Source of the DNA: Deltaproteobacteria bacterium
GTDB lineage: Bacteria > Desulfobacterota > Binatia > HRBIN30 > CADEER01
Reading direction: 5' to 3'
Length of the DNA: 64,000 bases
Assembly: GCA_029262455.1 (NCBI GenBank)
Contig: JAJCZJ010000020.1
Span: 325,078 to 389,077 of the forward strand
Made by a program: the position numbers and the translations under genes. Shown here piece after piece: positions 30,591-45,385 of the stretch. The notes beneath the pieces are model-generated. The model made no database searches. It had not been told where the DNA came from and saw only the letters and a list, made by a program, of their open reading frames with translations. Position 1 is the stretch's first letter. Each line of letters starts with the position of its first letter.

Positions 30591-30673
30591 TCGATGCAAA
30601 TCACTTGCCGTGTCACAAGTTTTCCCCTTTTAAGCTTGACAGGAAGTCAGCGAACGTCGAGACTGCCTCCCGG

Positions 30674-31962: not shown

Positions 31963-32469
31963 ATGAGCGACTCCAAAAAGACAAGAAAGCAGCTAATCGA
32001 AGAACTCGAACAACTTCGTGGTCAAGTCGCGCAGCGACAGCAGTCGCAGTCGGACAACAGTGCACCGGCGCTTGCCGGCGACGTTTCACGACGCACCGCG
32101 CTAAAGGTCGCCTGGACCGCGCCGGTCATTTTGGCAATCCCTCTCCAGGCCGATCGCTCTGGCGCCCAACCTCCGGTCGGAACGGTGGCCCCGGGCTGTC
32201 CCACCATGACCCCGACCAACGCGGCCCCTCCGACTAGCTCGCCGACCTTGTTCCCAACGACCGCTGAGCCGACGATTTCGCCGACTCAACCAGTCCCGAC
32301 CACCAGGTTGCCAACGTCCAGTCCCACGAACGACCCGACATTGCGTCCGACCACCAGCCCGACGATCCCTGCCCCGACGGCTATGCCGACGGCGAGGCCG
32401 ACCACCAGCCCGACGATCCCTGCTCCGACGCTTTCCCCGACCCCTGGTTTCCCGACGCTTTCCCCGTAA
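31963..32469 (+). CDS. Pro/Thr-rich small protein with a conserved N-terminal helix and an SRRTALK Tat-like motif; candidate substrate/precursor 1
   Basis: Inner part of ORF 31810..32469, ATG 31963 lies 20 nt after the upstream stop. MSDSKKTRKQLIEELEQLRGQV...DVSRRTALKVAWTAPVILAIPL, then about 90 aa with about 26 Pro, mostly as P-T. Paralog of 45413..45892. Confidence 0.7.
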   Translation: MSDSKKTRKQLIEELEQLRGQVAQRQQSQSDNSAPALAGDVSRRTALKVAWTAPVILAIPLQADRSGAQPPVGTVAPGCPTMTPTNAAPPTSSPTLFPTTAEPTISPTQPVPTTRLPTSSPTNDPTLRPTTSPTIPAPTAMPTARPTTSPTIPAPTLSPTPGFPTLSP

Positions 32470-32473
32470 TCAT

Positions 32474-32520
32474 CGGCGGTCAGCCCGCAATTCGGTTGAG
32501 AAACCGCCGTCGCTTTCTTC
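32474..32520 (+). terminator. Weak stem-loop directly after the candidate precursor gene (possible attenuator)
   Basis: CGGCGGT (32474-32480) pairs with ACCGCCG (32503-32509) across a 22-nt loop, followed by TCGCTTTCTTC. Not a canonical intrinsic terminator. Confidence 0.2.
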
Positions 32521-32611: not shown

Positions 32612-33976
32612 ATGTCGTCAGGAAACAGCGTAGAAACGCCGCCTACCAACTCTGGAGACTCCCCACGAGCACGGGGTGCGGCGGCTCGGCGGGTACGTCC
32701 GCGGCAGCGGGGCGGGCTCGAGACTTTCGAAGTACACAACGAAATCGTCGTGCTTCCCGGCGAGGGGGACCGCGTTTACGCGCTGAACGAGTCCGGTAAG
32801 GAGATCTTCGGCCTCTGCGACGGTCGCCACACCCTAGAGGCAATGGTCGACCAACTGGCGTCGAGGTACGACGCGCCTGACGTCGCGATCATGGGCGACG
32901 TGTCCGCAGCGATATTCGACCTCCACGGCCTCGGGCTGGTCGATATTCCTCCACCGGCTGACGCAGCTGCATCGATCGAGCCGCAGACCTCGGTCAAGGC
33001 ACGACCCAACGTGCGTTTCGTCTTCGGCATAGAGGACGTGCCCTATTTCCACTGGCAGCTTGCCATCCTCTTCGAGTCGCTCGTCGGCCAATTGCCCGAC
33101 GGTTGGGACGTCACCGTCGTCGTTTGCAACGACGAAGCACCGATTTCCGACGAGCTCATGAAGATCGTTTCCGAGTACGGTGTTCGCATCATGACCGGCA
33201 CCAGTCTCGCCGATCGCCACAGTCTCGACTTCGCCGGCGGCGGTGATCGCTACGTTCCGATGAACCGAGTCGAAGCACTCAGCGTCATTCGGCAAATCGT
33301 CGAACCCGAAGACGTCGTTTGCCTTCTGGACACCGACGTCTTCCTGTACGGCAACCTTCAAGAACAACTCTTCCCGACCGGCAACGCAATGGCCCGCAAC
33401 TGGATCATCTCCGAAGATCGGTACTTCGCGTTCTCGACCAACAACGAACGAGGACTGTCGCTCCCGAAGCTGCTCGAAGCCCTGGGGTGCGAGCAGGAGT
33501 TCAAACCCGGTGGCGTAGCGGTCTTCTTGACGGGAGAGACGATCCAACGCGAGCGCGTCATCCCCGACATTTTCCGTTTCCTTCAGGTTCTGTTCCTGCT
33601 CGGGAAAATCGTCGACGCACCAGCGCACGGCGTTTGGGTCGCCGAAATGGCATGCTTCGCAATGGCCATGTACCCCAACGAAATCGACTACGAGCTTCTC
33701 GACATCCCGCAATTCGCCGTCCAGGAGCAGCATGCTGAAGTCGCCCCCGACGGTTCGTTCTTCCACTACTACACCGACATCAACGACGGCGGGGGATCAA
33801 ATGGTCCGTTTTTCGAATCGCAGTGGCATAAACAGTTATTTCACCAGTCCAACATGCTCCTCGAAGACTTCGACAGCTTCAGAGTGAACGCCAAAGGCCG
33901 CCTCGAGCAGCGCTTCTTCGAAATCGCCGACAAGGCGAGAAAGCGCCTTTACGGCATCGAACGCACGGGCAAGTAG
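32612..33976 (+). CDS. PqqD-like domain fused to a GT95/GT96-like (HPAT / peptidyl-Ser galactosyltransferase-like) glycosyltransferase
   Basis: PqqD-like VYALNESGKEIFGLCDGRHTLEAMVDQLASRYD...AIFDLHGLGLV. GT part: FVFGIEDVPYFHWQLAILFESL, VVCLLDTDVFLYG, VWVAEMACFAMAMY. Confidence 0.6.
   Translation: MSSGNSVETPPTNSGDSPRARGAAARRVRPRQRGGLETFEVHNEIVVLPGEGDRVYALNESGKEIFGLCDGRHTLEAMVDQLASRYDAPDVAIMGDVSAAIFDLHGLGLVDIPPPADAAASIEPQTSVKARPNVRFVFGIEDVPYFHWQLAILFESLVGQLPDGWDVTVVVCNDEAPISDELMKIVSEYGVRIMTGTSLADRHSLDFAGGGDRYVPMNRVEALSVIRQIVEPEDVVCLLDTDVFLYGNLQEQLFPTGNAMARNWIISEDRYFAFSTNNERGLSLPKLLEALGCEQEFKPGGVAVFLTGETIQRERVIPDIFRFLQVLFLLGKIVDAPAHGVWVAEMACFAMAMYPNEIDYELLDIPQFAVQEQHAEVAPDGSFFHYYTDINDGGGSNGPFFESQWHKQLFHQSNMLLEDFDSFRVNAKGRLEQRFFEIADKARKRLYGIERTGK
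32717..32947 (+). other. PqqD-like (RRE-type) domain, copy 1, N-terminal
   Basis: aa 36-112 of ORF 32612; pattern L.LN..g..IW.LCDG..T..EI...L matches PF05402 by eye. Confidence 0.6.
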
Positions 33977-33980: not shown

Positions 33981-34598
33981 GTGTTGTCAATGTTCGATAC
34001 GCCCGCACACCTCGAGCAGCAGACGCGCGAGCAACAGGCCGCAGCCCGGTACTGCGGGCTCGGCTTCAAAAAGGCCACGCTGCCCTCCGAGGTCTTGCAA
34101 CGGTTGCGCCAACACCTGGAAACGAACAGCCGCCGATTCCGCGCCGAGGAGCCCATCGACTACCTCGTCAACCCGGACCCCGGGAAGATTCCGGCCCTTT
34201 ATTTCGAGGACAAAGAATTCAACGCCACCCTAAGTCGCGAGCTACAAGGATTGCACGAAGAGTGGGCCGGAAGGAGTCTGACCGAGTCCGCCTGCTACGG
34301 CATCCGCGTCTATCAACGCGGCAGCTTTCTCTACAACCACGTCGACCACACCGACACACACATCATCAGCTCTTCGATCTGCGTCGACCACCGCCTCGAC
34401 AAGCCGTGGCCCCTCTACGTCGAGGATATCGACGGCAATCCCCACCAGATCGATCTCGACCCTGGCGACATACTGTTCTACGAGGGAGCCCGCCTGCGAC
34501 ACGGCCGTGCCTATCCACTCGAGGGTGACTACTACGCATCCATTTTCGTCCACTATCGACCCGCAAATCTCTGGTCTTCGCGGCTCGTTGGCACCTAG
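33981..34598 (+). CDS. 2OG-Fe(II) oxygenase, prolyl 4-hydroxylase-like
   Basis: YGIRVYQRGSFLYNHVDHTD (HxD) and distal GDILFYEGARLRHGRAYPLEGDYYASIFVHYRP. Lies 4 nt after the upstream stop. Confidence 0.7.
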   Translation: MLSMFDTPAHLEQQTREQQAAARYCGLGFKKATLPSEVLQRLRQHLETNSRRFRAEEPIDYLVNPDPGKIPALYFEDKEFNATLSRELQGLHEEWAGRSLTESACYGIRVYQRGSFLYNHVDHTDTHIISSSICVDHRLDKPWPLYVEDIDGNPHQIDLDPGDILFYEGARLRHGRAYPLEGDYYASIFVHYRPANLWSSRLVGT

Positions 34599-34640: not shown

Positions 34641-36644
34641 GTGAGACATCTACTCTATACAAACTACCAGTCCGGTCAGTCGGGTTTGAGCAACGGCATC
34701 ATGTCGATCGAGCTGGGCGTGGTCCTCGCGTTCCTGACGAATCGGTTTCTCCTGCTCGATGGCAACATCTCCCCGCCGGCCAATATCGTGTCGTACGGCG
34801 ATCGAGTCGACAACAGCCAGCCGAGCCGCGTCACCGACCTGATCGACCTACCGGTCGCCTGGAGTGAGCCAGGAAGCGTCGACGTGTCCAAGTTGCCGTT
34901 CCTCGAATTGAGCGACGACCATCTGGGGAGTGCCGCGTTCTATGTCCCCGGCACCGTCGACATCCGATCCGCCGACGCGGAAGCGTTCGCCAACGGCAGG
35001 ACAGTGTGGCTCAACGCTGGCGGCTCGCTCGACGAGATCCCGGTGCTGCGAGTGTCCGAGGATCACAGCAAAGACAATCTTCGATACAATCTCAACTACT
35101 ACTCGTACTTCTTCTACCTCGACGACGAAACGCGTCGCTCCGTCTACCGCATGCTCGAGCGGATGCAACCAAAGCAGGACCTAGGGGAGCTGGCGAAGCG
35201 CGTCGCCGGCGATCTCGGAGCATTCAACGCGGTGCACTTGCGACGCGGTGACTTCAAGGTGACCTATGGAGTCACCACCCTCGACCGTCAACCTTGGGAA
35301 GCAATCGAGGCGCTCGAGCATCACTTCAAACGCGACGACACTCTGGTCTTCGTGACCGACGAGCGCGACGACCCGTTCTTCGACGAGATCAAGAAGGTCT
35401 ATACGCATCACGTATTCATCGATCACCACATCCTCGACGACTACGAGAAGGACTTCGCCGCATTGCAGCACCGCGACAGCATCGCCTTGGCCTATCTTTC
35501 CCAGCTCGTGGCGGCCGAATCCGCCGACTTCATTGGCACCATGACCAGCACGTTCACCGCCATCATCCAGCGCTACCGCGGCAATCGCGGCAAGGCCGAG
35601 AGTTTCAAGTACCTTTGGAACGAGCTCCCGGACGACGGCGATCGTCTCGAACGCGGCCGTCATCCGGTTAGTGAGTGCGTCCCGATGGACCGCGGCATGA
35701 TGGTCGAAGAGTCGTCGGGTCCGTACTCATGGAATCGCTACAACAAGAGGATCGCCGCCAACTGGATGCGCGAATGGCCCGAAAGTTTTCTGACCCAAGA
35801 GAGCCTCGAAACCGGCAAATTGACGACCGGGGCCAGCCCCGTTGCCCGCCCCATCGTTCTGGTTCGTCCCGAAAGGACGAAAGTCGAGGTCGCGTTCGAC
35901 GGCTTGAGCATCATTCTAAACTCGCAAGTGCCTCGCGTTGCGACCAAGCTGAGCGAAGCCTTCGAATCACGCCAAGCTGCGAGTCCAGCGAACGTCATCG
36001 GGGAGTTCGAGGTTGCTGAAGAAGACGGCGACTTCCGTCTTCTGCAACGCGGCCAGGAAATCGCCACCGCAGCAAGCTACGAGGAGTTGGCGCGCACGTT
36101 AAAACTCCGCATGGTGCCGATCTTTGTCGGTGCGCGCCGCCGGCACGTGTGGCTGGAAGCTTTTTCCTTCCGTAGAGCAGGCCATGCGCTGGTTCTCGCC
36201 GGCGACATGGGTCCTCCATCGGACTGGCTGCCGGACGCCATGTGCTCGAACGGCTGGGAGCTGCTGTGGGACGAGATCGTCCCGATCCGCCTGGAAGACT
36301 GTACCGTCACACCGTTCGGCCGCACGACCTGGCCGAAGGGCGCAGCCCTGCGCATCGACCGTACGCCCTGTCGCGTCAGCGGCCTGATCGTCACCAGCCG
36401 ACAAGTCCAGCGCCGCGACACCTTGACCGTCTTGTCCCCAGCCACCGGGGTGGCGGAGTTGATCGGCCGCTGCGTCGACTTCCGCACCGACCGCAAGCGG
36501 GCGGTAGAACGCCTGTGCAAGCTGGTCGAGAAACGAACCGTAGGCAGACTGTCCTTCAGCCGCGCCGAGACCGCTGTCGATCTCCTCACGCGCCCCTTCC
36601 TCGACGCGGAGCGTGAGTCCGCCCACGGTACAAAGTCTGCATGA
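34641..36644 (+). CDS. O-fucosyltransferase-like (PF10250-type) GT domain fused to an HprK-related-kinase-like domain with a degenerate P-loop
   Basis: GLSNGIMSIELGVVLAFLTNRFLLL, FNAVHLRRGDF, ADFIGTMTSTFTAIIQRYRG. C-terminal half: VEVAFDGLSIILNS...HVWLEAFSFRRAGHALVLAGDMGPPSDWLPDAMCSNGWELLWDEIVPI. Confidence 0.55.
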   Translation: MRHLLYTNYQSGQSGLSNGIMSIELGVVLAFLTNRFLLLDGNISPPANIVSYGDRVDNSQPSRVTDLIDLPVAWSEPGSVDVSKLPFLELSDDHLGSAAFYVPGTVDIRSADAEAFANGRTVWLNAGGSLDEIPVLRVSEDHSKDNLRYNLNYYSYFFYLDDETRRSVYRMLERMQPKQDLGELAKRVAGDLGAFNAVHLRRGDFKVTYGVTTLDRQPWEAIEALEHHFKRDDTLVFVTDERDDPFFDEIKKVYTHHVFIDHHILDDYEKDFAALQHRDSIALAYLSQLVAAESADFIGTMTSTFTAIIQRYRGNRGKAESFKYLWNELPDDGDRLERGRHPVSECVPMDRGMMVEESSGPYSWNRYNKRIAANWMREWPESFLTQESLETGKLTTGASPVARPIVLVRPERTKVEVAFDGLSIILNSQVPRVATKLSEAFESRQAASPANVIGEFEVAEEDGDFRLLQRGQEIATAASYEELARTLKLRMVPIFVGARRRHVWLEAFSFRRAGHALVLAGDMGPPSDWLPDAMCSNGWELLWDEIVPIRLEDCTVTPFGRTTWPKGAALRIDRTPCRVSGLIVTSRQVQRRDTLTVLSPATGVAELIGRCVDFRTDRKRAVERLCKLVEKRTVGRLSFSRAETAVDLLTRPFLDAERESAHGTKSA

Positions 36645-37630
36645 CAGACCAAGCAACCGCACCGCGCCAGATCGACATCCGCATCTCCACCATCGGCGGG
36701 CACGAGTATCGGTTGAATCTCCGCGAAGACGCCGTCCATTTGCGCGACCTCTTTACTCGATTCGTCAACCGACCGGCGACTGGGGCTGTCCGAGCTCCTG
36801 AATTCATCCAACTGCCCCTCGACGGAGGCAACGCTTCCTGCACGATCGCCGTCGATCAGATTGTGTCGATCGTCACCACGCCACCAGTCGTCATCGAAGT
36901 GCAACAACCCGCCGTCGAGCCAAACGTAATTCCAGATGTGCCGGCAGTGGTCGCGCCACCCCAGATCCGGCGCGCACACTACACGGTGATCGACGACTTT
37001 CTCACCGTCGATGAGCACCGAGACATGCTGGCGTTGGCATTGAGCGAGAAGGACAGCTTCGAACCCGGTACGGTGCAGGGTGAACCGAGTCCACACCGAC
37101 GAAACAGCGTCATCATGAACTTCGCAGACTCGGCGCACGGAACACTGCTGACAAGTCGTCTGCTCGTTTGGTTTCCATTGATCGCAAAGGCGCTGAAGGA
37201 ACCACTGTTTCCGCTCAAGACGGTCGAGTCGCAACTGACCGCCGCCAACGACGGAGACTACTATAAGCCTCACCTCGATACCGACGGGAAGACCCCCGAT
37301 TTCCGGGTCATCGCGTGCGTCTACTATTTCTTCCGCGAGCCAAAAGGGTTCACGGGCGGCGACCTACGCCTCTATGATTCCATCGAAACAGGTGGCGAAA
37401 TCTGTCAGGCGGATTCCTTCCAAGACATTCGGCCGGCAAGCAATCGCTTGGTCGCATTCACCTGCGAGACCTTCCACGAGCTGCTCGCGACTCGCTGCCC
37501 GTCCAAGGATATCGAAGACAGTCGTTTTGCGGTGACCGCGTGGTTTCACCGCAGCGGCGCACCGGACCCCGACGCCAAGTTCGGTTGGGGACATTATCGT
37601 TGCGGCGAAGTTCCGGAGGCACTGCGGTGA
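36641..37630 (+). CDS. Unassigned N-terminal ~80-aa domain fused to a 2OG-Fe(II) oxygenase (PF13640-like)
   Basis: ATGA overlap with the upstream stop. YYKPHLDTDG (HxD), GGDLRLYD, NRLVAFTCETFHEL, RFAVTAWFH. Confidence 0.7.
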   Translation: MTDQATAPRQIDIRISTIGGHEYRLNLREDAVHLRDLFTRFVNRPATGAVRAPEFIQLPLDGGNASCTIAVDQIVSIVTTPPVVIEVQQPAVEPNVIPDVPAVVAPPQIRRAHYTVIDDFLTVDEHRDMLALALSEKDSFEPGTVQGEPSPHRRNSVIMNFADSAHGTLLTSRLLVWFPLIAKALKEPLFPLKTVESQLTAANDGDYYKPHLDTDGKTPDFRVIACVYYFFREPKGFTGGDLRLYDSIETGGEICQADSFQDIRPASNRLVAFTCETFHELLATRCPSKDIEDSRFAVTAWFHRSGAPDPDAKFGWGHYRCGEVPEALR

Positions 37631-37802: not shown

Positions 37803-38930
37803 ATGATCTTCACGGTTTTCGTCGCACCGGTCGAACCAACGCAACAGTGGCGTGCCGATCTCCTCGAATACTCATGGCGACGCATCAAGCAGAGCGGCGA
37901 ACTGATCCGGCTGGCGCCAACCGCCCCCGGACGCGCACCAGGTAGCAGAGGGAGAGTCGGGAGAACCGTCAAAACGTTCGACTGGAACCCCCACCCGTAC
38001 ACCCAGGACGTGTACGCCGGCTATCAGACAACCGCCGGCGTACTCGAGTGGTTGTTCAACGAGCCGGCCGAAGGAACAGTCCTTTTGCTGGATTCGAGCT
38101 GCATCCTACGCCACCCGGTTACAGCAGAGGTCGAACCAGGCCACGTGCGCGGGTCGTCGTGGCCGGAGATCCCACTTGGCACGGACGGCCCATTCGGCCT
38201 GCATGATGATCTGAAGTTTCTCGAATCCTATTGCGTCAACCGCAAGCTCCCCCTCGCTCCCGTGCGGATGCCGATTTTGATCCACACGGCGGACCTGCGA
38301 AAAATCGCGGCGCGCTGGCTCGAGCTTACGGCGTTGATTCGATCCCATGCCGTAGGCGTTCACGGAAAATACCTTCATGCAGATCGCGTCGCCTACACCG
38401 TCGCCGCCGCCGAATACCGCATCCTCCACACCCTTGACGACCTCGGCACTACGACGTCGGATACCGGCAAAGACGTTCCGATCGTCGACTACAGCACACC
38501 GATCAAGTCCAAACAGGGAGAGATCGTCTGGGACCGAAAGGTCTATCGACCATGGGAGGCAGTCTACACCGAAAATGCGCGCGCAGGCGCAGGCAGAGAC
38601 GTACTCGGGATCCTGAACGAGATGGTGACGCGCCGCGAATCGGGAGCCGAGCTTGCGGCAACACGTCCACAGCGGTGCTACGGGGTGCGGGAAGCACGAA
38701 TTCTCGACGACATTCATCTCGAAGTACCTGGGTGTGCCGACTTGATGTCGCTGAATCAATCCGCGGCTGCCATCTGGGAGCTGTGCAACGGCGAGAACAC
38801 ACTCGCCGAGATCGTCAGCGAGCTCGAGAGACAATTCGACGCGTCACGCGAAACCCTCATGACATCCGTCGAATCGACGGCGAGGGATTTGGAAAGCTCA
38901 GGTGCCATCGAGCTGGAGGAGCTGTTCTGA
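37803..38930 (+). CDS. GT95/GT96-like glycosyltransferase fused to a C-terminal PqqD-like domain
   Basis: IFTVFVAPVEPTQQWRADLLEYSWRRIKQSGELIRL, AGVLEWLFNEPAEGTVLLLDSSCILRHPV, ILIHTADLRKIAARWLELT, ADRVAYTVAAAEYRILH. C-terminus: LMSLNQSAAAIWELCNGENTLAEIVSELERQFD. Confidence 0.6.
   Translation: MIFTVFVAPVEPTQQWRADLLEYSWRRIKQSGELIRLAPTAPGRAPGSRGRVGRTVKTFDWNPHPYTQDVYAGYQTTAGVLEWLFNEPAEGTVLLLDSSCILRHPVTAEVEPGHVRGSSWPEIPLGTDGPFGLHDDLKFLESYCVNRKLPLAPVRMPILIHTADLRKIAARWLELTALIRSHAVGVHGKYLHADRVAYTVAAAEYRILHTLDDLGTTTSDTGKDVPIVDYSTPIKSKQGEIVWDRKVYRPWEAVYTENARAGAGRDVLGILNEMVTRRESGAELAATRPQRCYGVREARILDDIHLEVPGCADLMSLNQSAAAIWELCNGENTLAEIVSELERQFDASRETLMTSVESTARDLESSGAIELEELF
38679..38927 (+). other. PqqD-like domain, copy 2, C-terminal
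   Basis: Last ~82 aa of ORF 37803..38930. Confidence 0.6.
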
Positions 38931-40156
38931 TGGCATCCAAAGCAAAACCAAGCGCCAAAAAGTCCGTGCCGACCACAAAAACAAAGCACGCAGCAAAACG
39001 TGCCAAAGCCTCGGCCAAGAAAACAGCCAAAGCGCCGCCCGGAAAAGCCACGACAGCACGGGCGAAGAAGACCACCAAGACTCCGGCCTCCAAGAGCCCC
39101 AAAACCCGGACCCAAAGGACCCGGGCCCAAAAGCCCCGGGCCCGCAAAGCCGCGCTCAAAGTATCGCAAACGGTGTCGCCCAAAGGATCGCAAACGACTT
39201 CGAAGACGGAGCGAACGACCCCATCGCCTCGCGCAAAGTCGCGGCAGGCCACAAAACAACCCCAGATCTTCGTGTCGATCGCCTCCTACCGCGACCAGTT
39301 TCTTCACTTCACCATCGAGTCGGTGCTCAAACAGGCGACGTACCCAGAACGGTTGACCTTCGGCCTCTGCTGGCAAGCCGACGACACCGAGCAACTCGAT
39401 CAATACCTGCACGATCCGCGTTTCCGCATTCGCAAGTACCCGTACTACGCGAGCCTCGGCTACGGTTGGGCAAGAGCCGAGATCCAAAAACTATACGCCG
39501 GCGAAGAGTACCATCTACTGATCGATTCTCACACGTATCTCGCCAAGGGGTGGGACGAGAATCTGATCGCGCAACTCGAGAGCAAGCCGGGCGAGAAGCC
39601 GCTACTGACGACCAGCTCACCCCCTTTCACCTTCGACAATGACGGCAACGTCGTAATCCCGTGGCAAGGGACCGAACACGACGGCGTGCCGCTGATGAAG
39701 TGCGCACGAATCCAACCGGCAGGGTGGGTCGACATCCAGATGTCCAATGAGCGCAAGTCCACCAAACATCAAACCACCGGATTGGTGTGCTGTAACTTTG
39801 TCTTCACGCACGGGGCTTGGATCCGCGAAGTGCCCGAGGATCCGGCGATGATCAACGCCGGCCACGAGTCAGCCCTTTCGGTTCGTACCTTCACCCACGG
39901 ATACGACATCTACCTGCCCGACGAAATTCAAATCTGGCACCTCGACTACAACAACTACCCGAACGGTGAGCGCAACAAGGTATGGGAAGCAAAGTCCGAC
40001 AGTTGGCAGTCTGAGGGCACCGAGATCATGCTGCGGCGGCTGCAAGCGCTGTTCTACAACCGCGGCGACCGCGCCTCGCTCGGCCGCTACGGACTCGGTC
40101 GATCCCGCACCGTAGCCGACTGGGCGGAGATCACCGGACTCGACCTCAGTGACTGA
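38930..40156 (+). CDS. Lys/Ala/Thr/Pro-rich basic N-terminal extension (~111 aa) fused to a GT60 Gnt1-like (PF11397) glycosyltransferase
   Basis: Inner part of ORF 38552..40156. ATGA overlap with the upstream stop, GGAGGAG SD at 38915-38921. MASKAKPSAKKSVPTTKTKHAAKRAKASAKK..., then QIFVSIASYRDQFL, LLIDSHTY. Confidence 0.65.
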   Translation: MASKAKPSAKKSVPTTKTKHAAKRAKASAKKTAKAPPGKATTARAKKTTKTPASKSPKTRTQRTRAQKPRARKAALKVSQTVSPKGSQTTSKTERTTPSPRAKSRQATKQPQIFVSIASYRDQFLHFTIESVLKQATYPERLTFGLCWQADDTEQLDQYLHDPRFRIRKYPYYASLGYGWARAEIQKLYAGEEYHLLIDSHTYLAKGWDENLIAQLESKPGEKPLLTTSSPPFTFDNDGNVVIPWQGTEHDGVPLMKCARIQPAGWVDIQMSNERKSTKHQTTGLVCCNFVFTHGAWIREVPEDPAMINAGHESALSVRTFTHGYDIYLPDEIQIWHLDYNNYPNGERNKVWEAKSDSWQSEGTEIMLRRLQALFYNRGDRASLGRYGLGRSRTVADWAEITGLDLSD

Positions 40157-41942
40157 CGTCGACTCCGCACTACTGCCAATTCCCCAACCCGAGTGGCGTG
40201 CTTCTTTATCCGGCGACGGCGCGGCAGTTGATGTCCTGATTTTAAGCAAGGACCGCGCCTGCCAACTCGACGGACTGCTGCGCACGATGCGCGCGTTCCT
40301 GACCATCCCACACCGGAAATACGTACTGTACAAGACGTCTAATTTGGCGTTCGAGCGCGGCTACGACATGCTCCGCCGGTGGAATCCCGAGGTCGAGTTC
40401 ATCGACGAGGCGCAAACGTTTCGACAATGCTACCTCGACCTCGTGGCAAGGATCGCCGCCGGGCCTGGTCGCTACTGGATGCCGGTGATGGACGACATGA
40501 TCTTCACTCGCACGTTCACCGCACAGCCACTCATCGACCTCCTCGACACAGACGAGGACGTGCTGGCGATCTCTCTGCGCCTCGGCGAGAACATTACCTA
40601 TTGCTACACCCGAAACGCTCCAACCACACCTCCGGACTTCAGCAACGGACACCGTTGGGAATGGAGAACAGCCAGCCCAGGCTACTGGAACTATCCAATG
40701 TCCGTCGACGCCAACATCTACCGCACGGCGGAAATGGCCGAATACATCCCGACCCTCCAATTCGGCAAGGCTGAAGTCATCGAGGCACGCATGGCCGGGG
40801 TGCCCTTGAACCGCCCCCATATGCTGTGTGAACCGACCCCCAGCGTACTCAATCTCGCGATCAACCGCGTTCAACACACCTTCAAGAATCGGCACGGCAC
40901 AATCACGCCAGAAGCCCTGAACGGCGCTTTCCTCGCGGGTTTCGCGATGGATGTGCGCCCGTTGCTGGGTCGAACCTTCAACGCCTGTCACGTCGAGGTC
41001 GAGCTGTCCTTGGTCCCCGATGCGCGCGAGCGCCCCGGCGCAACGCCCCTCTCTTCGACCGGCTGGAAACCACAGCGAAACGGCGCCGTCGTCGTGACCG
41101 AGAGCCATGCTGTCGTGACGCTCAAGAGGAACGGAACGAAGCTCAAACTCAATCAGAGCGCCGAAGAGATCTGGAAACTGTGCGACGGAACACGAACGCC
41201 CGAGGACATCCAAAACGAGCTCGCGCAACATTTTGACGCAACCCCGCGCCAGCTTCACAGCGGCGTACGAAGCGCCCTGGCGAATTTCATCAATCACGGC
41301 CTTCTCCGTCAGGAACGCCCGGAAGGCGCATACCGCCGCATCGACCTGCGCCAGATTCCCTGCTTCGTGATCAATTGCGAAGCCGATGCTGAGAAGGACA
41401 CGTTGATGAAGCGTCAGCTCGCTGAGCTCGGGATACCGTACGAACGTGTACCCGGGATCGCCGCAAGCCCGGATTGGGTCGGCGTCGCGCTGTCGCACCT
41501 CAAAGTGCTTCGCCTGACCCGCTCGACGACACCCTTCCTGGTGCTCGAGGACGATTGCTTGTTCAACGACCGCTTCCAACCAGTGTGGCAAGTACCGGTC
41601 GAGGCCGACGCCCTGTATCTCGGCGTTTCCGAGTTCGGCCTCGAGACCCCCGGTCACTTCAGCTGGGGCCGCCGGCGCAAGAACCAATGGAGACCCTACG
41701 ACCGGTCCTTCCTCCGCATTTTCAACATGCTCGCACGCCATGCGGTCGTGTACCTTTCCAACGACTACTGCGAGCAAGTCATCCAATCGCAAATCGAAGC
41801 ACTGACGAATCGAAGTTTGCCGTACCCTGGGGACATCGGCTGCGCGATGCTGCAAGCATCGCACGTCGTCCTGACCCCGAACGAACCGATCTGCCGGCAA
41901 ACCGGTCGTGACTCGACCGTGCGTCCGTTGCCGGAGCTCTGA
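40149..41942 (+). CDS. Three-domain protein: GT-A-like domain, central PqqD-like domain, GT25-like domain
   Basis: VDVLILSKDRACQLDGLLRTM; central KLKLNQSAEEIWKLCDGTRTPEDIQNELAQHFD; C-terminal IPCFVINCEADAEKDTLMKRQLAELGIPYERVPGI...FLVLEDDC. Confidence 0.6.
   Translation: MTDVDSALLPIPQPEWRASLSGDGAAVDVLILSKDRACQLDGLLRTMRAFLTIPHRKYVLYKTSNLAFERGYDMLRRWNPEVEFIDEAQTFRQCYLDLVARIAAGPGRYWMPVMDDMIFTRTFTAQPLIDLLDTDEDVLAISLRLGENITYCYTRNAPTTPPDFSNGHRWEWRTASPGYWNYPMSVDANIYRTAEMAEYIPTLQFGKAEVIEARMAGVPLNRPHMLCEPTPSVLNLAINRVQHTFKNRHGTITPEALNGAFLAGFAMDVRPLLGRTFNACHVEVELSLVPDARERPGATPLSSTGWKPQRNGAVVVTESHAVVTLKRNGTKLKLNQSAEEIWKLCDGTRTPEDIQNELAQHFDATPRQLHSGVRSALANFINHGLLRQERPEGAYRRIDLRQIPCFVINCEADAEKDTLMKRQLAELGIPYERVPGIAASPDWVGVALSHLKVLRLTRSTTPFLVLEDDCLFNDRFQPVWQVPVEADALYLGVSEFGLETPGHFSWGRRRKNQWRPYDRSFLRIFNMLARHAVVYLSNDYCEQVIQSQIEALTNRSLPYPGDIGCAMLQASHVVLTPNEPICRQTGRDSTVRPLPEL
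41079..41315 (+). other. PqqD-like domain, copy 3, internal
   Basis: aa 311-389 of ORF 40149..41942. Confidence 0.6.
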
Positions 41943-41977: not shown

Positions 41978-44900
41978 GTGAAAAAGGGCACAATCCACGA
42001 TCTCTTCTCCCGCACCGCTTGCGTCGTGTCCGACAGGCACCGATTCATCTATTTGACGGCGCAAAACGCCACGTCTTCCCTGAAGGCCGAGCTGTCGAAC
42101 GAGCACTGCGGCGGCGTTGTCCTCGCCCGCGCACAGGTGGCTGATAAACTCTGGAACCAATACTTTACGTTCGCCTTCCTGCGCGACCCGCTGACGCGCT
42201 TTCTCTCCGCCTATCAGGAAGTGTCTCTGCACATGGAGCGTGACAAACTCGAACCGCGCCCTTTCGGCCGGATGCCCGACGGCCTCGATCGCTTTCAGGC
42301 ATTTCTCGCGGACGTCGAGCAGAACGGTCCGTGGAACGAGCACATTGCACTCCAGCTAGCCTTCGTCGAGCGCCGAAGAATCGACTTTTGGGGGCTCGTC
42401 GAAACGCTGCAAGACGACTTCCAACAAATCTACACCCGGCTGGGATTGGGGACCTGTCCCGTTCTGCCAAAACGCCGCTCTCGCAGCGGCCGTGAGGAAA
42501 AGGACGGCATCTCGCGCTTCGCCTTCCATCCGGAGGACCTCGATGCGACGACAATTGAGCGCATCTACGACCTCTACCGTGAGGACGTCTTGCTGATTCG
42601 AGCGGTTCGCCCCGACGCACCTGAAATGCAGCCGCACTCAACCCGTGCCGCACCGCCCCCCGGAATGGTGCAGGTGGCGATCGCCCTGGCCAACGGCGGC
42701 GAATACTCCCTCGAACTTCCGCCCGGCCAACCAGAGCTGGGCGCTCTGCAAGCTGTGGTATCACCACAACAATCCGATGGACGTTTTCTCGGCCCGCAAG
42801 TTCTGCAGGTTCCACTGCGTGGTGGCAATTCCGCGCTGACGTTTTCCACGCAGCACCTCGTTCGTCTCGAGCTACGCCCCCCCGACGCCCGAGAACTGCG
42901 CCGAATCGAGGCGCCGGCCACCGGCACGGGCAACTCCGGAGTGAATCTAATAAACGTCGGGAACAAGCGGCCGCCAACCGAGGACCCATCGAGCAATATC
43001 GACGAGGCGCATCTCGGTGGCTACATTCGTGCGGCCAATACACCGATTCTCCACAGCGCCGCAGGCCCACACGGGGACCGGGGAACCTGGAATCCGCTGC
43101 TGTGGCGTTGGGCAATCGAAGATCTCGACGTGCGATCAGTGATCGATATCGGATGCGGCGAGGGACACGCCGCCGGATTTTTCTCCGACGGCGGGTGTGA
43201 AGTGCTCGCGCTCGATGGCAGCCTTCAAGCGCGCTATTCCAGCGTTGTTCCAGATCGCCACGTCGTACACGACTTCGTCGAGGGACCTTTCGTCCCAGAG
43301 AAAAGCTTCGACATGGCCTGGACCTGCGAGTTCGTCGAACACGTCGAGGCGCGTTTTCTCCACAATTTCCTGGCTACGATCGCATCGAGCCGCAAGTACG
43401 TGATGATGACGTTCGCCAGCCCGACACAAACAGGCTGGCATCACGTCAATTGCCAAGAACAGGGTTACTGGGTCGATCAGTTGGGACGCCTCGGGTTTCG
43501 CCTGGACGACGATCTAACCGAGAGAGGCCGAGCCTTGGCTCACTCTCATTTTCGCGAACGTGGCCTGGTCTTCGTCCGGCACCATCGAAAAGGCGAGTCA
43601 TCGAAGTCCACAGAACCGTCGCTGCGCGCGACTGCCGAGAGTCACTGTCTCGACCCGCTGCCGGTCCAATCCATGCAGGTCGCACAGCGCGAGAGCGATG
43701 CCTTCTACCTGTTTGTCGACATCTTCGTGCATCCGACCGCACCGAGAATCGTGGCGATCTCACCACCCTATGGCGAAGACTGGAATCCTAACGTTGTCGG
43801 CATCGACTACGATGCCGTCGACCTTGTATTCGGTGACATACGCGTCCGCGGCCGCTGCCTGCGGCACCGTCTCGACTCCTGGGAGCCTTGCATGCTTCTC
43901 GAGTTCGAGGACGAAGACCTAACAGAGCGCATTCGGGCCAACGACGAGATCAACGTCACGATCGAGGCCGGCTCGCATTCGTCGTCCTTCGTCCTGACGA
44001 CCCGCCCAGCGCCAGCCTACGATGTCGCAATGAGCCTCGTCGTACGCAACGAAAACCGCTGGATCCGCACGTTTCTCGACTACTACCTCGACTGCGTCAA
44101 AGCCGACCACGTCTTCATCTACGACAACGGAACGTCGGAACAAGACCAGCTGCTTTCCATTCTTCACCCGTACCGAGAGCGCGGGCAAGTGACGTACATC
44201 CCGTGGGATTTTCGCTGGCGCAACCGCATCGACCGCAAGATGATCGGCCAACCGACACAGGAGGCTCACTCCCTTGCAAGATTCGCAAACACCGGGTGGA
44301 TCGGCTTTCTCGACATCGACGAGTTCCTGCGCTTGCCGCACAGCACCCTGCCACAATTTCTCGCTCGCTTCGCGTCCGCGGAGGTCGACGGACTCTCGTT
44401 CGGTATCCGGTGGTTTTCTTACGAGGGCCCGCTTGCACTCGATGAGATTACGAGTGTGCCACTGCAATTCCTCCACTCGCGCCGCAATGAGCTCGGCCGA
44501 AAACGGCAGAAGTTCTTCGTCAAAGGCGGCGGCTCGAAGTTTCTTCGCTTGCATTGGCTCGAAGACGGAGGTCGCGAACTGCCCATCGACGACACCGAGA
44601 TCTACTTTCACCACTACGATCAACGTCCCGGCCGTTTCGAAGAAGGAAAGCAAATCGGAGGAGCGCGCGACGAATACATGCTGCGCTTCGCCGACCAGCT
44701 CTCGCGCCCCGAGCGGCACAGAGCCCCTCTAACCGAGAGAGGATGGATCACCCACATCAACTCTTCGATCGAACGCGCCGAACGCGACACCTCCAAACTC
44801 ACCCCGGAAGTCCTCGCCGTCGACGGCATGTGCGGGCGCTACACCCGTCACTTCTACAACAACCTCTGCAGCTTCGGAGGATGCCGCTACCTCGAGATCG

Positions 44901-45385
44901 GCAGCTATCACGGGGCCAGCACCTGCGCGGCAATCTTCGGCAACGACGTATCCGCCGTGTGCATCGACAATTGGACACAGTTTCACGGCAAGCGAAGCCG
45001 CTTCGAGGATGCCCTACGACGCTTCCGAGGAGATCGCTCGGTCCGAGTCATCGAGCAAAACTGCTTCGAAGTAGACGCCTCAAGCCTCGGCCCATTCGAC
45101 ATCTATCTCTACGATGGCGACCACAGCCAGCAGAACCAGTACCGAGCCTTGCAGCACTTCGTTCAGACGCTGGCCAAGCTCGCCGTAGTCGTCATCGACG
45201 ACTGGAATCGTCGGCATATCCGTCGGGGGACACAGGACGCGATTCGGGACCTCGAACTCGATGTAATCTTCGACCGAGAGATCCTACTGCCAACCGACCA
45301 GACGGCGGATGAAAACCGTGACGCTGGAGCGCGAACTTGGTGGAACGGACTCTACATCATGCTCGTTCGCAGTAGAACGCAGTAG
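41978..45385 (+). CDS. 1135-aa five-module enzyme: sulfotransferase, shared ~75-aa domain, class I SAM-MTase, GT92/Glyco_tranf_2_4-like, second SAM-MTase (Methyltransf_24-like)
   Basis: FTFAFLRDPLTRFLSAY; MVQVAIALANGGEYSLELPP...LQVPLRGGNSALTF; VIDIGCGEGHAAGF; SLVVRNENRWIRTFLDYYL...FIYDNGTS...FLDIDEFL; YLEIGSYHGAST...IYLYDGDHS...VVIDDWN. GTG start has a weak SD. Confidence 0.65.
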   Translation: MKKGTIHDLFSRTACVVSDRHRFIYLTAQNATSSLKAELSNEHCGGVVLARAQVADKLWNQYFTFAFLRDPLTRFLSAYQEVSLHMERDKLEPRPFGRMPDGLDRFQAFLADVEQNGPWNEHIALQLAFVERRRIDFWGLVETLQDDFQQIYTRLGLGTCPVLPKRRSRSGREEKDGISRFAFHPEDLDATTIERIYDLYREDVLLIRAVRPDAPEMQPHSTRAAPPPGMVQVAIALANGGEYSLELPPGQPELGALQAVVSPQQSDGRFLGPQVLQVPLRGGNSALTFSTQHLVRLELRPPDARELRRIEAPATGTGNSGVNLINVGNKRPPTEDPSSNIDEAHLGGYIRAANTPILHSAAGPHGDRGTWNPLLWRWAIEDLDVRSVIDIGCGEGHAAGFFSDGGCEVLALDGSLQARYSSVVPDRHVVHDFVEGPFVPEKSFDMAWTCEFVEHVEARFLHNFLATIASSRKYVMMTFASPTQTGWHHVNCQEQGYWVDQLGRLGFRLDDDLTERGRALAHSHFRERGLVFVRHHRKGESSKSTEPSLRATAESHCLDPLPVQSMQVAQRESDAFYLFVDIFVHPTAPRIVAISPPYGEDWNPNVVGIDYDAVDLVFGDIRVRGRCLRHRLDSWEPCMLLEFEDEDLTERIRANDEINVTIEAGSHSSSFVLTTRPAPAYDVAMSLVVRNENRWIRTFLDYYLDCVKADHVFIYDNGTSEQDQLLSILHPYRERGQVTYIPWDFRWRNRIDRKMIGQPTQEAHSLARFANTGWIGFLDIDEFLRLPHSTLPQFLARFASAEVDGLSFGIRWFSYEGPLALDEITSVPLQFLHSRRNELGRKRQKFFVKGGGSKFLRLHWLEDGGRELPIDDTEIYFHHYDQRPGRFEEGKQIGGARDEYMLRFADQLSRPERHRAPLTERGWITHINSSIERAERDTSKLTPEVLAVDGMCGRYTRHFYNNLCSFGGCRYLEIGSYHGASTCAAIFGNDVSAVCIDNWTQFHGKRSRFEDALRRFRGDRSVRVIEQNCFEVDASSLGPFDIYLYDGDHSQQNQYRALQHFVQTLAKLAVVVIDDWNRRHIRRGTQDAIRDLELDVIFDREILLPTDQTADENRDAGARTWWNGLYIMLVRSRTQ

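What the first reader, a model, noticed from the sequence alone, without database searches (positions are those of the whole stretch)
31963..32469. Candidate substrate 1: helix + SRRTALK motif + ~90-aa P-T module
SEEN: the 168-aa product reads MSDSKKTRKQLIEELEQLRGQV...(~20 aa)...DVSRRTALKVAWTAPVILAIPLQADRSG. It then has about 90 residues with about 26 Pro (hand count), nearly all as x-P-T (SPT, APT, RPT, IPAPT). A near-identical DNA duplication encodes RPTTSPTIPAPT twice (about 32383-32415 and 32434-32466). ESTABLISHED: S/T-R-R-x-F-L-K followed by a mildly hydrophobic stretch is the Tat signal consensus, and Tat exports pre-folded or pre-modified proteins. Non-contiguous [AST]-P motifs are the glycomodules of plant arabinogalactan proteins. 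INFERENCE: the N-terminal amphipathic helix could be the leader bound by the PqqD domains, with the RR segment acting as the export signal after cytoplasmic modification. The RR motif sits about 40 aa from the N-terminus, which is unusually far.
Basis: partly seen in the sequence, partly recalled or inferred. Interest (0 to 1): 0.85.

Follow-up and report, generated by a model that had tools for sequence, protein, structure and literature searches.

The report
Leader-guided Pro-Thr repeat glycoprotein precursor
This small gene is real and belongs to an unnamed, widespread bacterial family of precursor proteins (conserved leader, twin-arginine signal-like segment, Pro-Thr repeats every four residues) that always sit next to leader-binding glycosyltransferases and a prolyl-hydroxylase-like enzyme, which suggests bacteria make mucin- or plant-like glycoproteins by the logic used for modified peptides.

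Summary
ORF 31963-32469 encodes the 168-aa protein as read, with 32 Pro and 20 x-P-T triplets. Only the DNA duplication is misplaced by about 38 nt.

It is a genuine gene. Leader dN/dS against orthologues is 0.03-0.11. A paralogue lies at 45413-45892(-). An orthologue of the same architecture sits directly upstream of the same enzyme gene in 26 of 29 genome loci from at least five phyla.

The family has about 130 non-identical members, all 'hypothetical', with no Pfam or NCBIfam model. Its parts are an N-terminal helix, an acidic linker, (S/T)RRxxL plus an invariant W-x-A-P-V-I-L segment, an AxA-like site, and a hypervariable P-T-x-x repeat core.

The conserved neighbours are an RRE(PqqD)-GT8-like glycosyltransferase, an O-FucT-like protein, a prolyl-4-hydroxylase-like oxygenase, a second RRE protein and a GT60 GlcNAc-transferase. 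None has a clear signal peptide or membrane segment.

Best reading: the precursor is recruited through its leader, hydroxylated and O-glycosylated in the cytoplasm, then exported, probably by Tat, with the leader removed by signal peptidase.

Substrate status is well supported. Tat use, the RRE-binding site and the chemistry are inferred. Curated Tat profiles do not match. I found no description in eight literature searches.

The parts
31963..32469 (+). Precursor gene 1 (168 aa plus stop): leader, then signal-like segment, then P-T-x-x repeat core
   Evidence: ORF and translation. A GAGGTG sits 9 nt upstream of the ATG. Orthologues occupy the same syntenic position. Leader dN/dS is 0.03-0.11. 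The identical protein P0176 is in the public collection.
31984..32046 (+). Conserved N-terminal helix, residues 8-28 (family consensus K-T-K-x-E-L-L-x-E-I-E-x-L-R-x-x-L)
   Evidence: AlphaFold2 predicts a helix at 8-28 with pLDDT 78-91. Family alignments show E14 invariant and L11 and L18 nearly invariant.
32086..32106 (+). Twin-arginine motif S-R-R-T-A-L-K, residues 42-48
   Evidence: RR is invariant in the 29-locus alignment of typical leaders; the one locus copy with KR (L029) was left out of it. Across 132 non-identical members: RR 123, KR 8, RK 1.
32107..32145 (+). Signal-like hydrophobic segment VAWTAPVILAIPL, residues 49-61, with invariant W51, P54 and V55
   Evidence: Alignments. The maximum 19-residue Kyte-Doolittle mean is 1.31, below a membrane-helix threshold.
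32146..32166 (+). c-region Q-A-D-R-S-G-A, residues 62-68, with a basic residue and a small-x-small site (S-G-A before Q)
   Evidence: Family-wide, AxA occurs within 24 residues in 98 of 132 members. The first charged residue after the h-region is K or R in 104 of 132.
32188..32466 (+). P-T-x-x repeat core, residues 76-168 (27 Pro, 25 Thr, 20 x-P-T); predicted disordered
   Evidence: Across the family, P-T to P-T spacing is exactly 4 in 228 of 362 cases, and 62% of Pro are followed by Thr. AlphaFold2 pLDDT is about 50-65.
32335..32436 (+). Tandem 51-nt duplication inside the core (two copies encoding RPTTSPTIPAPT)
   Evidence: the repeat finder family D1, 78% identity.
32612..33976 (+). RRE (PqqD) fused to a GT-A, GT8-like glycosyltransferase; the invariable downstream neighbour of the precursor
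   Evidence: Pfam PqqD E 7.6e-14. AlphaFold2 mean pLDDT 77. Foldseek hits LgtC, glycogenin, WbbM and GlyE for the catalytic part, and TbiB1 with its leader peptide (TM 0.84) for the RRE. It has 182 homologues at E <= 0.001 in the protein collection; the best 120 listed are 50-100% identical.
33981..34598 (+). Conserved 205-aa protein with no family match
   Evidence: Present in all loci that extend that far. No Pfam or NCBIfam hit.
34641..36644 (+). O-fucosyltransferase-like protein with a weak HprK-related-kinase-like segment
   Evidence: PF10250 E 1.3e-5, below the curated cut-off. TIGR04352 E 1.3e-6, far below the cut-off. Conserved in the loci.
36641..37630 (+). 2OG-Fe(II) oxygenase of the prolyl-4-hydroxylase type
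   Evidence: PF13640 E 3.9e-15. The only PDB sequence hit is a prolyl 4-hydroxylase alpha subunit, 6t8m.
37803..38930 (+). Unknown domain with a C-terminal RRE (PqqD)
   Evidence: PF05402 E 1.9e-13 at residues 314-369. Conserved in the loci.
38930..40156 (+). GT60 (Pfam 'GlcNAc', the Skp1 hydroxyproline / mucin-type alpha-GlcNAc transferase family)
   Evidence: PF11397 E 5e-44. It is 68-81% identical across phyla where the syntenic copy is present. Start revised to ATG 38930, which has a GGAGGA upstream.
40149..41942 (+). Unknown domain, RRE (PqqD) and a GT25-like segment
   Evidence: PF05402 E 3.6e-11; weak PF01755. Present in only some loci.
41978..45385 (+). Sulfotransferase, methyltransferase, GT92/GT2 and methyltransferase fusion
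   Evidence: Pfam. Present in a subset of loci.
45413..45892 (-). Precursor gene 2 (159 aa): same leader, shorter P/T region, C-terminal hydrophobic segment and acidic tail
   Evidence: 39% identity over 112 aa to precursor 1, E 1e-21. Sequence. Hydrophobic segment at residues 113-135.

Best explanation
ORF 31963-32469 encodes the precursor (substrate) of a conserved, leader-guided protein hydroxylation and O-glycosylation pathway.

Shown by the data:
- It is a real gene under purifying selection.
- It belongs to a family whose members always lie beside an RRE-fused GT8-like glycosyltransferase. The locus also holds a prolyl-4-hydroxylase-like oxygenase, a second RRE protein and a GT60 transferase.
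- Its N-terminal 65-70 residues are conserved, while the P-T-x-x core is hypervariable.
- The core enzymes have no clear signal peptide or membrane segment.

Inferred:
1. The RRE (PqqD) domains bind the leader. The contact could be the helix at residues 8-28, the invariant W-x-A-P-V-I-L stretch, or both. Binding holds the disordered core at the fused or associated enzymes.
2. In the cytoplasm, Pro of the P-T units is hydroxylated. Hyp and/or Thr then receive GlcNAc from GT60 and further sugars from the GT8-like, O-FucT-like and GT92 enzymes. In this window's larger cluster, sulfate and methyl groups may also be added.
3. The same leader is an N-terminally extended signal peptide, with RR, a 13-15 residue h-region, a basic c-region and a small-x-small site. 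Once released by the RREs, it sends the finished glycoprotein across the inner membrane, most likely through Tat.
4. Signal peptidase then removes the leader.
5. The product is a mucin-like periplasmic, surface or secreted glycopolymer.

Paralogue 2 would stay anchored in the membrane by its C-terminal hydrophobic segment.
For: Real gene.

Paralogue with the same leader.

Synteny:
- A precursor with the same architecture was found in 26 of 29 genome loci and in the 3 metagenome loci.
- It lies directly upstream of the RRE-GT gene in all but two of these. Two of the three genome loci without one start at a contig edge.
- The gene order precursor, RRE-GT8, unknown 205-aa protein, O-FucT-like, P4H, X-RRE, GT60 is kept across Binatia, Gammaproteobacteria, Nitrotoga, Acidobacteriota, Myxococcota and Thermodesulfobacteriota.

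Leader versus core: the leader is conserved and the core is variable.

RRE identity: three PqqD domains, and the model superposes on TbiB1 bound to its leader peptide.

Glycosyltransferase fold: GT8-like.

P4H-type oxygenase and GT60.

Enzymes lack clear membrane or signal segments: the best 19-residue hydrophobicity window is at most 1.70, borderline in two of them.

Signal-peptide features:
- RR in 123 of 132 members, KR or RK in the remaining 9.
- AxA in 98 of 132.
- The first charge after the h-region is basic in 104 of 132.
- The h-region is too short and too weakly hydrophobic for a membrane helix.
- No ABC transporter or peptidase appears in the conserved core.

The core is predicted to be disordered.

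A Rieske protein with a typical RR N-terminus in the same window suggests the organism uses Tat.
Against: - No direct evidence exists for any modification, for leader binding or for export.
- Curated Tat-signal profiles fail. PF10518 matches 1 of 29 leaders at E 0.36 and TIGR01409 matches none.
- RR lies at residues 43-44, beyond the roughly 35-residue limit I recall from rule-based Tat predictors.
- The h-region hydrophobicity (1.97) resembles my four Sec examples (1.78-2.27) more than my three Tat examples (1.15-1.55) (illustrative only).
- Sequence invariance of W-x-A-P-V-I-L is not expected of an ordinary h-region. The RR region may therefore be conserved for RRE binding and not for Tat.
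- The window copy lacks the C-terminal motif found in its three closest orthologues, so it may be a truncated variant.
- The O-FucT and HprK-like assignments are below curated thresholds.
- Whether Pro, Thr or both are modified is unknown.
Confidence: 0.6

Rival explanations
1. Same substrate and cytoplasmic modification, but export is by Sec. The leader would be an extended Sec signal peptide, like the ESPR-type signals of type 5 secreted proteins or the long signals of Gram-positive serine-rich-repeat glycoproteins. The RR/W-APVIL segment would be conserved because it is the RRE recognition sequence.
For: Tat profiles do not match. The h-region hydrophobicity is in the range of my Sec examples. 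The strict invariance of W51, P54 and V55 suggests a sequence-specific binding partner. The core is predicted disordered and needs no folded-state export. As precedent, Sec-exported type 5 proteins with signals longer than 50 residues are glycosylated at many sites in the cytoplasm (PMC8151025).
Against: A basic pair is never lost, and RR is strongly preferred over KR or RK (123:8:1). A basic residue in the c-region, present in 104 of 132 members, disfavours Sec according to established signal-peptide rules. A 40-50 residue acidic or neutral n-region is unusual for Sec. Large branched or sulfated glycans would be hard to thread through SecYEG (inference).
Confidence: 0.22
2. The RR-hydrophobic segment is an uncleaved signal anchor. 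The protein would be a bitopic inner-membrane protein with a cytoplasmic N-terminal helix and a periplasmic P-T stalk. The helix would act as a cytoplasmic docking or regulatory element.
For: In Myxococcota members the uncharged stretch after RR reaches 23-35 residues. Paralogue 2 and the L012-L016 type have a second, C-terminal hydrophobic segment.
Against: In the window protein and most others the hydrophobic stretch is only 13-22 residues, contains two prolines and scores below a membrane-helix threshold. AxA-type sites follow it in 98 of 132 members.
Confidence: 0.1
3. It is a classical multi-core RiPP precursor. The repeat core would be cut into many small modified P-T peptides, released or exported by unlinked proteases and transporters.
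For: RRE domains and a leader/core conservation pattern are hallmarks of RiPPs. Tandem cassettes occur in the core.
Against: No protease or transporter lies in the conserved core. There are no conserved cleavage sites flanking the four-residue units. Cores range from about 40 to 270 residues. Many members carry clade-specific C-terminal motifs or anchors, which indicates the chain stays intact.
Confidence: 0.06
4. It is a chance open frame in GC-rich repetitive DNA.
For: The composition is low-complexity, and the first word-indexed protein search found nothing.
Against: Leader dN/dS is 0.03-0.11. Orthologues are syntenic in more than 25 loci. There are 149 representative clusters in a full HMMER scan. 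P-T is encoded by seven different hexamers.
Confidence: 0.01

Closest known systems
RiPP precursor peptides recognised by PqqD-type RREs (for example lasso peptide TbiA with TbiB1, or PqqA with PqqD)
   Same: A small gene lies next to its modifying enzymes. The leader is conserved and the core is hypervariable. The RRE domains are structurally like TbiB1. RREs fused to glycosyltransferases have been noted bioinformatically (PMC12710340).
   Different: The precursor is 108-331 aa with a repetitive, protein-sized core. No dedicated leader protease or transporter is linked. The leader carries a signal-peptide-like RR, h-region and AxA module. The enzymes are P4H-like, GT60 and GT8-like, whereas the RRE-fused glycosyltransferases reported so far are PF00535.
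Cytoplasmic Skp1 hydroxyproline glycosylation in Dictyostelium and Toxoplasma (P4H1/PhyA plus Gnt1, GT60); described here from my own knowledge of the pathway
   Same: A soluble PF13640-type prolyl hydroxylase is paired with a soluble PF11397/GT60 GlcNAc-transferase, followed by further cytoplasmic glycosyltransferases.
   Different: That pathway modifies one proline in a folded protein, uses no leader or RRE, and does not export the product. Here the target is a repeat array in a disordered, probably exported chain. There is no Skp1.
Twin-arginine (Tat) signal peptides and their binding chaperones (TorD and NapD type)
   Same: It has an S/T-R-R-x-hydrophobic-L motif, a moderately hydrophobic h-region, a basic c-region and an AxA site. 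The idea that a cytoplasmic protein holds the signal peptide until maturation is complete parallels Tat proofreading chaperones (established knowledge; analogy only).
   Different: RR lies 35-70 residues from the N-terminus. Curated Tat profiles do not match. The h-region is sequence-invariant. The cargo is disordered, not folded.
Cytoplasmically glycosylated, Sec-exported adhesins (HMW1A/HMW1C, AIDA-I, Ag43) and Gram-positive serine-rich-repeat glycoproteins (GspB, PsrP with GtfA/B and GlyE)
   Same: Multi-site glycosylation occurs in the cytoplasm before export, and the N-terminal signals are unusually long (PMC8151025). GlyE-type GT8 enzymes are among the fold matches.
   Different: Those systems have no RRE or leader recognition and no prolyl hydroxylase. 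They use different repeats (Ser-rich, or NxS/T) and different export routes (Sec or accessory Sec).
Plant hydroxyproline-rich glycoproteins (arabinogalactan proteins, extensins)
   Same: Disordered Pro-rich repeats lie behind a cleavable signal. A P4H is present. Some members have a C-terminal hydrophobic anchor.
   Different: The conserved unit here is P-T at a period of 4, not [AST]-P. The enzymes are cytoplasmic, not in the ER or Golgi. No GT31 Hyp-galactosyltransferase was seen.

Membership tests
Tat (twin-arginine) signal peptide | S/T-R-R-x-F-L-K-like motif with an invariant arginine pair | tested here: met
   SRRTALK at residues 42-48. RR in 123 of 132 members, KR in 8, RK in 1.
Tat (twin-arginine) signal peptide | An uncharged, moderately hydrophobic h-region of about 13 or more residues directly after the motif | tested here: met
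   VAWTAPVILAIPLQA, 15 residues. The 13-residue Kyte-Doolittle mean is 1.97, which is at the Sec-like end of my few examples.
Tat (twin-arginine) signal peptide | A basic residue in the c-region and a small-x-small cleavage site | tested here: met
   The window copy reads QADRSGA then Q. Across the family the first charge after the h-region is basic in 104 of 132 members, and AxA occurs in 98 of 132.
Tat (twin-arginine) signal peptide | Match to the curated profiles (Pfam PF10518, TIGR01409) | tested here: not met
   PF10518 matched 1 of 29 leaders at E 0.36. There was no NCBIfam hit at E <= 0.1.
Tat (twin-arginine) signal peptide | RR near the N-terminus (within about 35 residues in rule-based predictors; this limit is recalled, not run) | tested here: not met
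   RR lies at 43-44 in this protein and at 35-70 across the family.
Tat (twin-arginine) signal peptide | Export depends on TatABC | not testable with these tools
   This needs tat mutants or RR-to-KK reporters.
RiPP precursor peptide | Encoded beside the modifying enzymes, with a conserved leader and a variable core | tested here: met
RiPP precursor peptide | A RiPP recognition element is present in the cluster | tested here: met
   Three PqqD domains. Profile hits to TbiB1, PqqD and TfuB1. Structural match to TbiB1 with its leader, TM 0.84.
RiPP precursor peptide | The leader physically binds the RRE | not testable with these tools
RiPP precursor peptide | Small product released by a dedicated leader protease and/or transporter | tested here: not met
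   No protease or ABC transporter lies in the conserved core. Precursors are 108-331 aa.
Skp1-type P4H/GT60 hydroxyproline glycosylation | A soluble PF13640 prolyl hydroxylase together with a soluble PF11397 (GT60) transferase | tested here: met
Skp1-type P4H/GT60 hydroxyproline glycosylation | The acceptor is a single proline of Skp1 | tested here: not met
   The acceptor candidate is a P-T-x-x repeat protein. No Skp1-like gene was seen among the ORFs I scanned.
Plant AGP/extensin-type glycomodule | Non-contiguous [A/S/T]-Pro or contiguous Ser-Pro(n) repeats | tested here: inconclusive
   A, S or T precede Pro in 51% of cases. The dominant signal is Thr after Pro (62%) at a period of 4.

The most novel reading that the evidence does not exclude
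Bacteria from several phyla make hydroxyproline- and/or threonine-O-glycosylated, mucin- or AGP-like glycoproteins in the cytoplasm using RiPP logic. An RRE-bound leader doubles as a Tat signal peptide, so the RRE acts as both substrate recruiter and export gatekeeper. The P4H plus GT60 pair would be a prokaryotic relative, and possibly the ancestor, of the eukaryotic Skp1 hydroxyproline-glycosylation enzymes.
Probability: 0.35. Interest if true: 0.92.

Novelty: new variant of a known kind. Interest (0 to 1): 0.8.

Why it matters
If the inferred pathway is right, it would be a bacterial hydroxyproline/threonine O-glycosylation system with a genetically defined substrate. I found no description of one in the searched literature.

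It would extend leader-guided (RRE) modification from small peptides to protein-sized repeat polymers. It would also give a natural example of a leader that is at the same time an export signal.

The system offers a compact, portable toolkit for making mucin-like glycopolymers in bacteria: a leader, a four-residue acceptor unit and soluble enzymes.

It also makes the prokaryotic ancestry of the eukaryotic cytoplasmic P4H/GT60 pathway testable.

The locus occurs in cultured strains, Luminiphilus syltensis NOR5-1B and Elongatibacter sediminis CH-27, so experiments are feasible.

Tried and rejected
- A word-indexed protein search with only the two window leaders found nothing. A 29-sequence profile then found 42 proteins, and a full HMMER scan found 149 clusters.
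- The exact-sequence contig look-up for the 168-aa protein found nothing. The sequence is nevertheless in the representative library as P0176.
- Pfam and NCBIfam have no model for the precursor.
Leader-RRE docking therefore could not be tested.
- I looked for a truncation remnant. The same frame after the stop reads SSAVSPQFG*ETAVAFFRGL, which is reminiscent of the orthologues' ...ETALFSFDD C-terminus. The DNA alignment is uninformative at 55% column identity, so I do not claim it.
- Hydrophobic-moment analysis gave only weak support for 'amphipathic'.
- The intergenic RNA fold is not more stable than shuffles (z -0.40). No promoter or terminator consensus was found near the gene on the + strand.
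- Two repeat-rich proteins in the HMMER list, P0178 and P0242, are spurious matches.
- Eight literature searches found no description of this system.
Full report
**1. Observation**

- It has 32 Pro and 29 Thr. The last 93 residues hold 27 Pro, 25 Thr and 20 x-P-T triplets spaced 4-6 residues apart.
- SRRTALK is at residues 42-48, followed by 15 uncharged residues, VAWTAPVILAIPLQA.
It is a 51-nt tandem unit at 32335-32385 and 32386-32436, 78% identical. The two RPTTSPTIPAPT-coding stretches lie at about 32345-32380 and 32396-32431.
- AlphaFold2, run with a 44-sequence family alignment, predicts a helix at 8-28 (pLDDT 78-91), a short helix at 43-49 and disorder elsewhere.
- The hydrophobic moment of the helix is modest and not clearly above shuffles.

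**2. It is a gene, not a chance frame**

- The 20 P-T dipeptides use seven different hexamers, and GC3 (0.71) matches neighbouring genes (0.74).
- For the two conserved leader segments (43 codons), dN/dS against the orthologues in L026, L001 and L030 is 0.03-0.11. Synonymous sites are near saturation.
- A paralogue lies at 45413-45892 on the minus strand (159 aa). It shares the leader (39% identity over 112 aa, E 1e-21). It has a shorter P/T region, a C-terminal hydrophobic segment and an acidic tail.

**3. Context in the window**

Downstream on the + strand lies an operon:
- 32612-33976: PqqD domain plus an unknown domain.
- 33981-34598: a 205-aa protein with no family match.
- 34641-36644: O-FucT-like, weak, with a weak HprK-related-kinase-like segment.
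- 36641-37630: a 2OG-Fe(II) oxygenase of the prolyl-4-hydroxylase type. Its only PDB sequence hit is a prolyl 4-hydroxylase alpha subunit.
- 37803-38930: an unknown domain plus a PqqD domain.
- 38930-40156: a PF11397/GT60 'GlcNAc' transferase, E 5e-44.
- 40149-41942: an unknown domain, a PqqD domain and a GT25-like segment.
- 41978-45385: a sulfotransferase, methyltransferase, GT92 and methyltransferase fusion.

I modelled the first enzyme with a 20-sequence alignment (mean pLDDT 77).
- Its catalytic part is a GT-A fold closest to GT8-type enzymes: LgtC, glycogenin, WbbM, UGGT, LARGE1 and GlyE.
- Its N-terminal domain superposes on TbiB1 in complex with its lasso leader peptide (TM 0.84).
- A profile search of PDB sequences also gave TbiB1, PqqD and TfuB1.
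- The three PqqD domains are about 30% identical to each other.

None of the cluster enzymes has a convincing hydrophobic segment. The best 19-residue window is at most 1.70, borderline in two of them. They are therefore predicted to be cytoplasmic.

**4. Comparative genomics**

- The RRE-GT8-like protein has 182 homologues at E <= 0.001; the best 120 listed are 50-100% identical.
- A scan of one genome per species returned 29 loci. They come from Candidatus Binatia (the closest, 71-72%), Gammaproteobacteria (Elongatibacter sediminis, Luminiphilus syltensis NOR5-1B, Halieaceae, Congregibacter), Nitrotoga, Acidobacteriota, Polyangia/Myxococcota, Thermodesulfobacteriota and one alphaproteobacterium.
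- Six-frame scans found an ORF of the same architecture in 26 of these 29 loci and in the three metagenome loci.
- That ORF lies directly upstream of the RRE-GT gene in all but two of them. Two of the three genome loci without one start at a contig edge.
- The order precursor, RRE-GT8, 205-aa protein, O-FucT-like, P4H-like, X-RRE, GT60 is conserved wherever the contig reaches that far. The syntenic GT60 is 68-81% identical.
- The two large 3' genes are present in only some loci.

**5. Anatomy of the family**

1. An N-terminal helix, M-S-D-x-x-K-T-K-x-E-L-L-x-E-I-E-x-L-R-x-x-L.
2. A variable, mostly acidic linker.
3. (S/T)-R-R-x-x-L-x(1-3)-W-[VI]-A-P-V-I-L-[ST]-x-P. R43, R44, W51, P54 and V55 are invariant in the 29-locus alignment.
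4. Eight to twenty small residues that usually contain K or R and end in A-x-A or A-Q-A.
5. A core of 40 to 270 residues made of P-T-x-x units.
   - P-T to P-T spacing is exactly 4 in 228 of 362 cases.
   - 62% of Pro are followed by Thr.
   - Core composition is P 19.6%, T 18.5%, A 16.1%.
6. Clade-specific C-termini:
   - I-P-V-E-[IL]-S-x-F-[DE]-[IV]-x in Gammaproteobacteria.
   - A-F-P-A-A-A-P...E-T-A-L-F-S-F-D-D in the Binatia-type loci.
   - A Cys-containing L-G-x-A-A-P-D-S...A-L-G-S-A-R tail in Myxococcota.
   - A hydrophobic segment plus acidic tail in another group, which includes window paralogue 2.

Across 132 non-identical members, the basic pair is RR in 123, KR in 8 and RK in 1. 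The first charged residue after the hydrophobic segment is basic in 104. AxA occurs within 24 residues in 98.

Family size:
- A full HMMER scan of 1.84 billion representatives with the leader profile gave 149 clusters at E <= 1e-3 and 79 at E <= 1e-10. Almost all are 60-330-aa proteins matched at their N-terminus.
- A few hits are spurious repeat proteins.
- Sources call these proteins 'hypothetical' and they have no Pfam domain.

**6. Mechanism**

Shown:
- The precursor-enzyme linkage.
- The contrast between a conserved leader and a variable core.
- The presence of RREs.
- A GT-A fold in the adjacent enzyme.
- P4H-type and GT60 family membership.
- No clear membrane or signal segment in the enzymes.
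- Signal-peptide-like features in the leader.

Inferred:
- The RREs bind the leader and present the disordered P-T-x-x array to the hydroxylase and glycosyltransferases in the cytoplasm.
- The leader is also an N-terminally extended signal peptide that exports the finished glycoprotein and is cut by signal peptidase near residue 68.

Arguments for Tat:
- The near-absolute RR pair.
- The basic c-region.
- The long n-region.
- The bulk expected of the modified cargo.
- A Rieske protein with a classical RR N-terminus in the same window, which suggests Tat is in use.

Arguments against Tat:
- PF10518 matches only 1 of 29 leaders (E 0.36) and TIGR01409 matches none.
- RR lies beyond the usual N-terminal range.
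- The h-region is as hydrophobic as my Sec examples.

The strict invariance of W-x-A-P-V-I-L is more than any translocase needs. My preferred reading is that this stretch, the helix, or both are the RRE contact. RRE binding would then mask the signal until modification is complete, much as Tat proofreading chaperones do. That step is pure inference.

**7. Rivals**

- Sec export with an extended signal. Precedent: type 5 secreted proteins with signals longer than 50 residues that are glycosylated at many sites in the cytoplasm (PMC8151025).
- An uncleaved signal anchor.
- A multi-core RiPP that is cut into small peptides.
- A chance ORF, which is rejected.

**8. Comparison with known systems, and novelty**

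- The system works like a RiPP pathway in its recognition logic, but it fails the 'small product plus dedicated protease or transporter' feature.
- It resembles a Tat substrate but fails the curated profiles and the position rule.
- It shares the P4H plus GT60 pair with the eukaryotic Skp1 pathway but has a different acceptor.
- It resembles plant HRGPs only loosely, because the unit is P-T at a period of 4.
- A 2025 survey notes RREs fused to PF00535 glycosyltransferases without describing this system (PMC12710340).
- Eight literature searches found nothing on PqqD/RRE with a prolyl hydroxylase and GT60 in bacteria.

I therefore rate it a new variant of known kinds: leader-guided modification and bacterial cytoplasmic protein glycosylation. 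There is a realistic chance that it defines a new class.

**9. Caveats specific to this window copy**

- It lacks the C-terminal motif present in its three closest orthologues, L001, L026 and L030. It may be a shortened variant.
- A same-frame, remnant-like sequence after the stop is suggestive, but the DNA alignment does not support it.
- The source organism is not identified. The closest loci are Binatia-type metagenome-assembled genomes.

Noticed in passing
window 45413-45892 (-), with 46049-46900, 46893-47900 and 48116-49114 (-): A second precursor paralogue has the same leader, a C-terminal hydrophobic segment and an acidic tail. It follows a second GT60, a sulfotransferase (N-terminus HESPVTS x4) and an NAD-dependent epimerase on the minus strand. 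The GT60, sulfotransferase, precursor order is the same as in locus L032.
   Followed up: partly
window 30086-31942 (+) (true start uncertain; the hydrophobic N-terminal segment lies near 30750-30830): A Cys-rich, disintegrin-like protein has a TPTPVPTPTPTPVP linker and a C-terminal membrane segment. It sits directly upstream of precursor 1 and is conserved in that position in L001, L026 and L030, where the T-P-T/A-T-P-T runs are far longer. It may be another glycosylation substrate.
   Followed up: partly
window 32467-32530: Precursor 1 lacks the C-terminal AFPAAAP...ETALFSFDD motif of its closest orthologues. After the TAA the same frame reads SSAVSPQFG*ETAVAFFRGL, possibly a decayed remnant. 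The DNA alignment is inconclusive.
   Followed up: partly
window 32474-32520: A GC-rich stem-loop (CGGCGGUCAGCC...GGUUGAGAAACCGCCG) followed by UCGCUUUCUU lies just after the precursor stop. It could be a partial terminator that raises the precursor-to-enzyme ratio. The folding energy is not better than shuffles, and the terminator scan did not flag it.
   Followed up: partly
window 38930-39260 (+): The GT60 gene starts at ATG 38930, overlapping the upstream stop, with GGAGGA before it. It carries a Lys/Ala/Thr-rich basic N-terminal extension of about 110 aa that is absent from the L030 orthologue.
   Followed up: no
window 16733-28907: A further glycosylation block holds three YfhO-family membrane proteins and a GT2 (16733-24116, +), a GT11 fucosyltransferase-like gene (24158-24916, -), an 876-aa protein with no family match (24941-27571, -) and an MBOAT (27498-28907, -). 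This suggests additional glycosylation or acylation outside the cytoplasm.
   Followed up: no
loci L003, L004, L006, L007, L009-L011, L023, L028; proteins P0122, P0126, P0131 and others: Gammaproteobacterial and some Acidobacteriota precursors end in a conserved I-P-V-E-[IL]-S-x-F-[DE]-[IV]-x motif. Myxococcota ones end in G-x-C...L-G-x-A-A-P-D-S...A-L-G-S-A-R. These clade-specific C-termini are unexplained; they could be a sorting signal or a second recognition site.
   Followed up: no
P0162, P0275, P0278, P0250, P0258: Divergent members keep the basic pair (RR or KR) and the W-x-A-P-V-I-L module but lack the typical N-terminal helix motif. P0162 replaces the P-T core with G-S-K-D-Y repeats. 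The alphaproteobacterial-type members among them have V-F-A-Q-S or A-F-A-A-S sites after the segment.
   Followed up: no
window 53227-56455 (-): A Rieske protein (55916-56455) has a PRRAFFARLL N-terminus. Next to it are a cytochrome b (54860-55906) and a multi-haem cytochrome (53227-54837). This gives an in-window example of a classical twin-arginine N-terminus.
   Followed up: partly
window 5591-7876 (+): A 744-762-aa protein with an N-terminal signal-like segment has no Pfam match. My P-[TS] density scan flagged it. The neighbouring 4247-5590 product has a weak ice-binding beta-roll hit.
   Followed up: no
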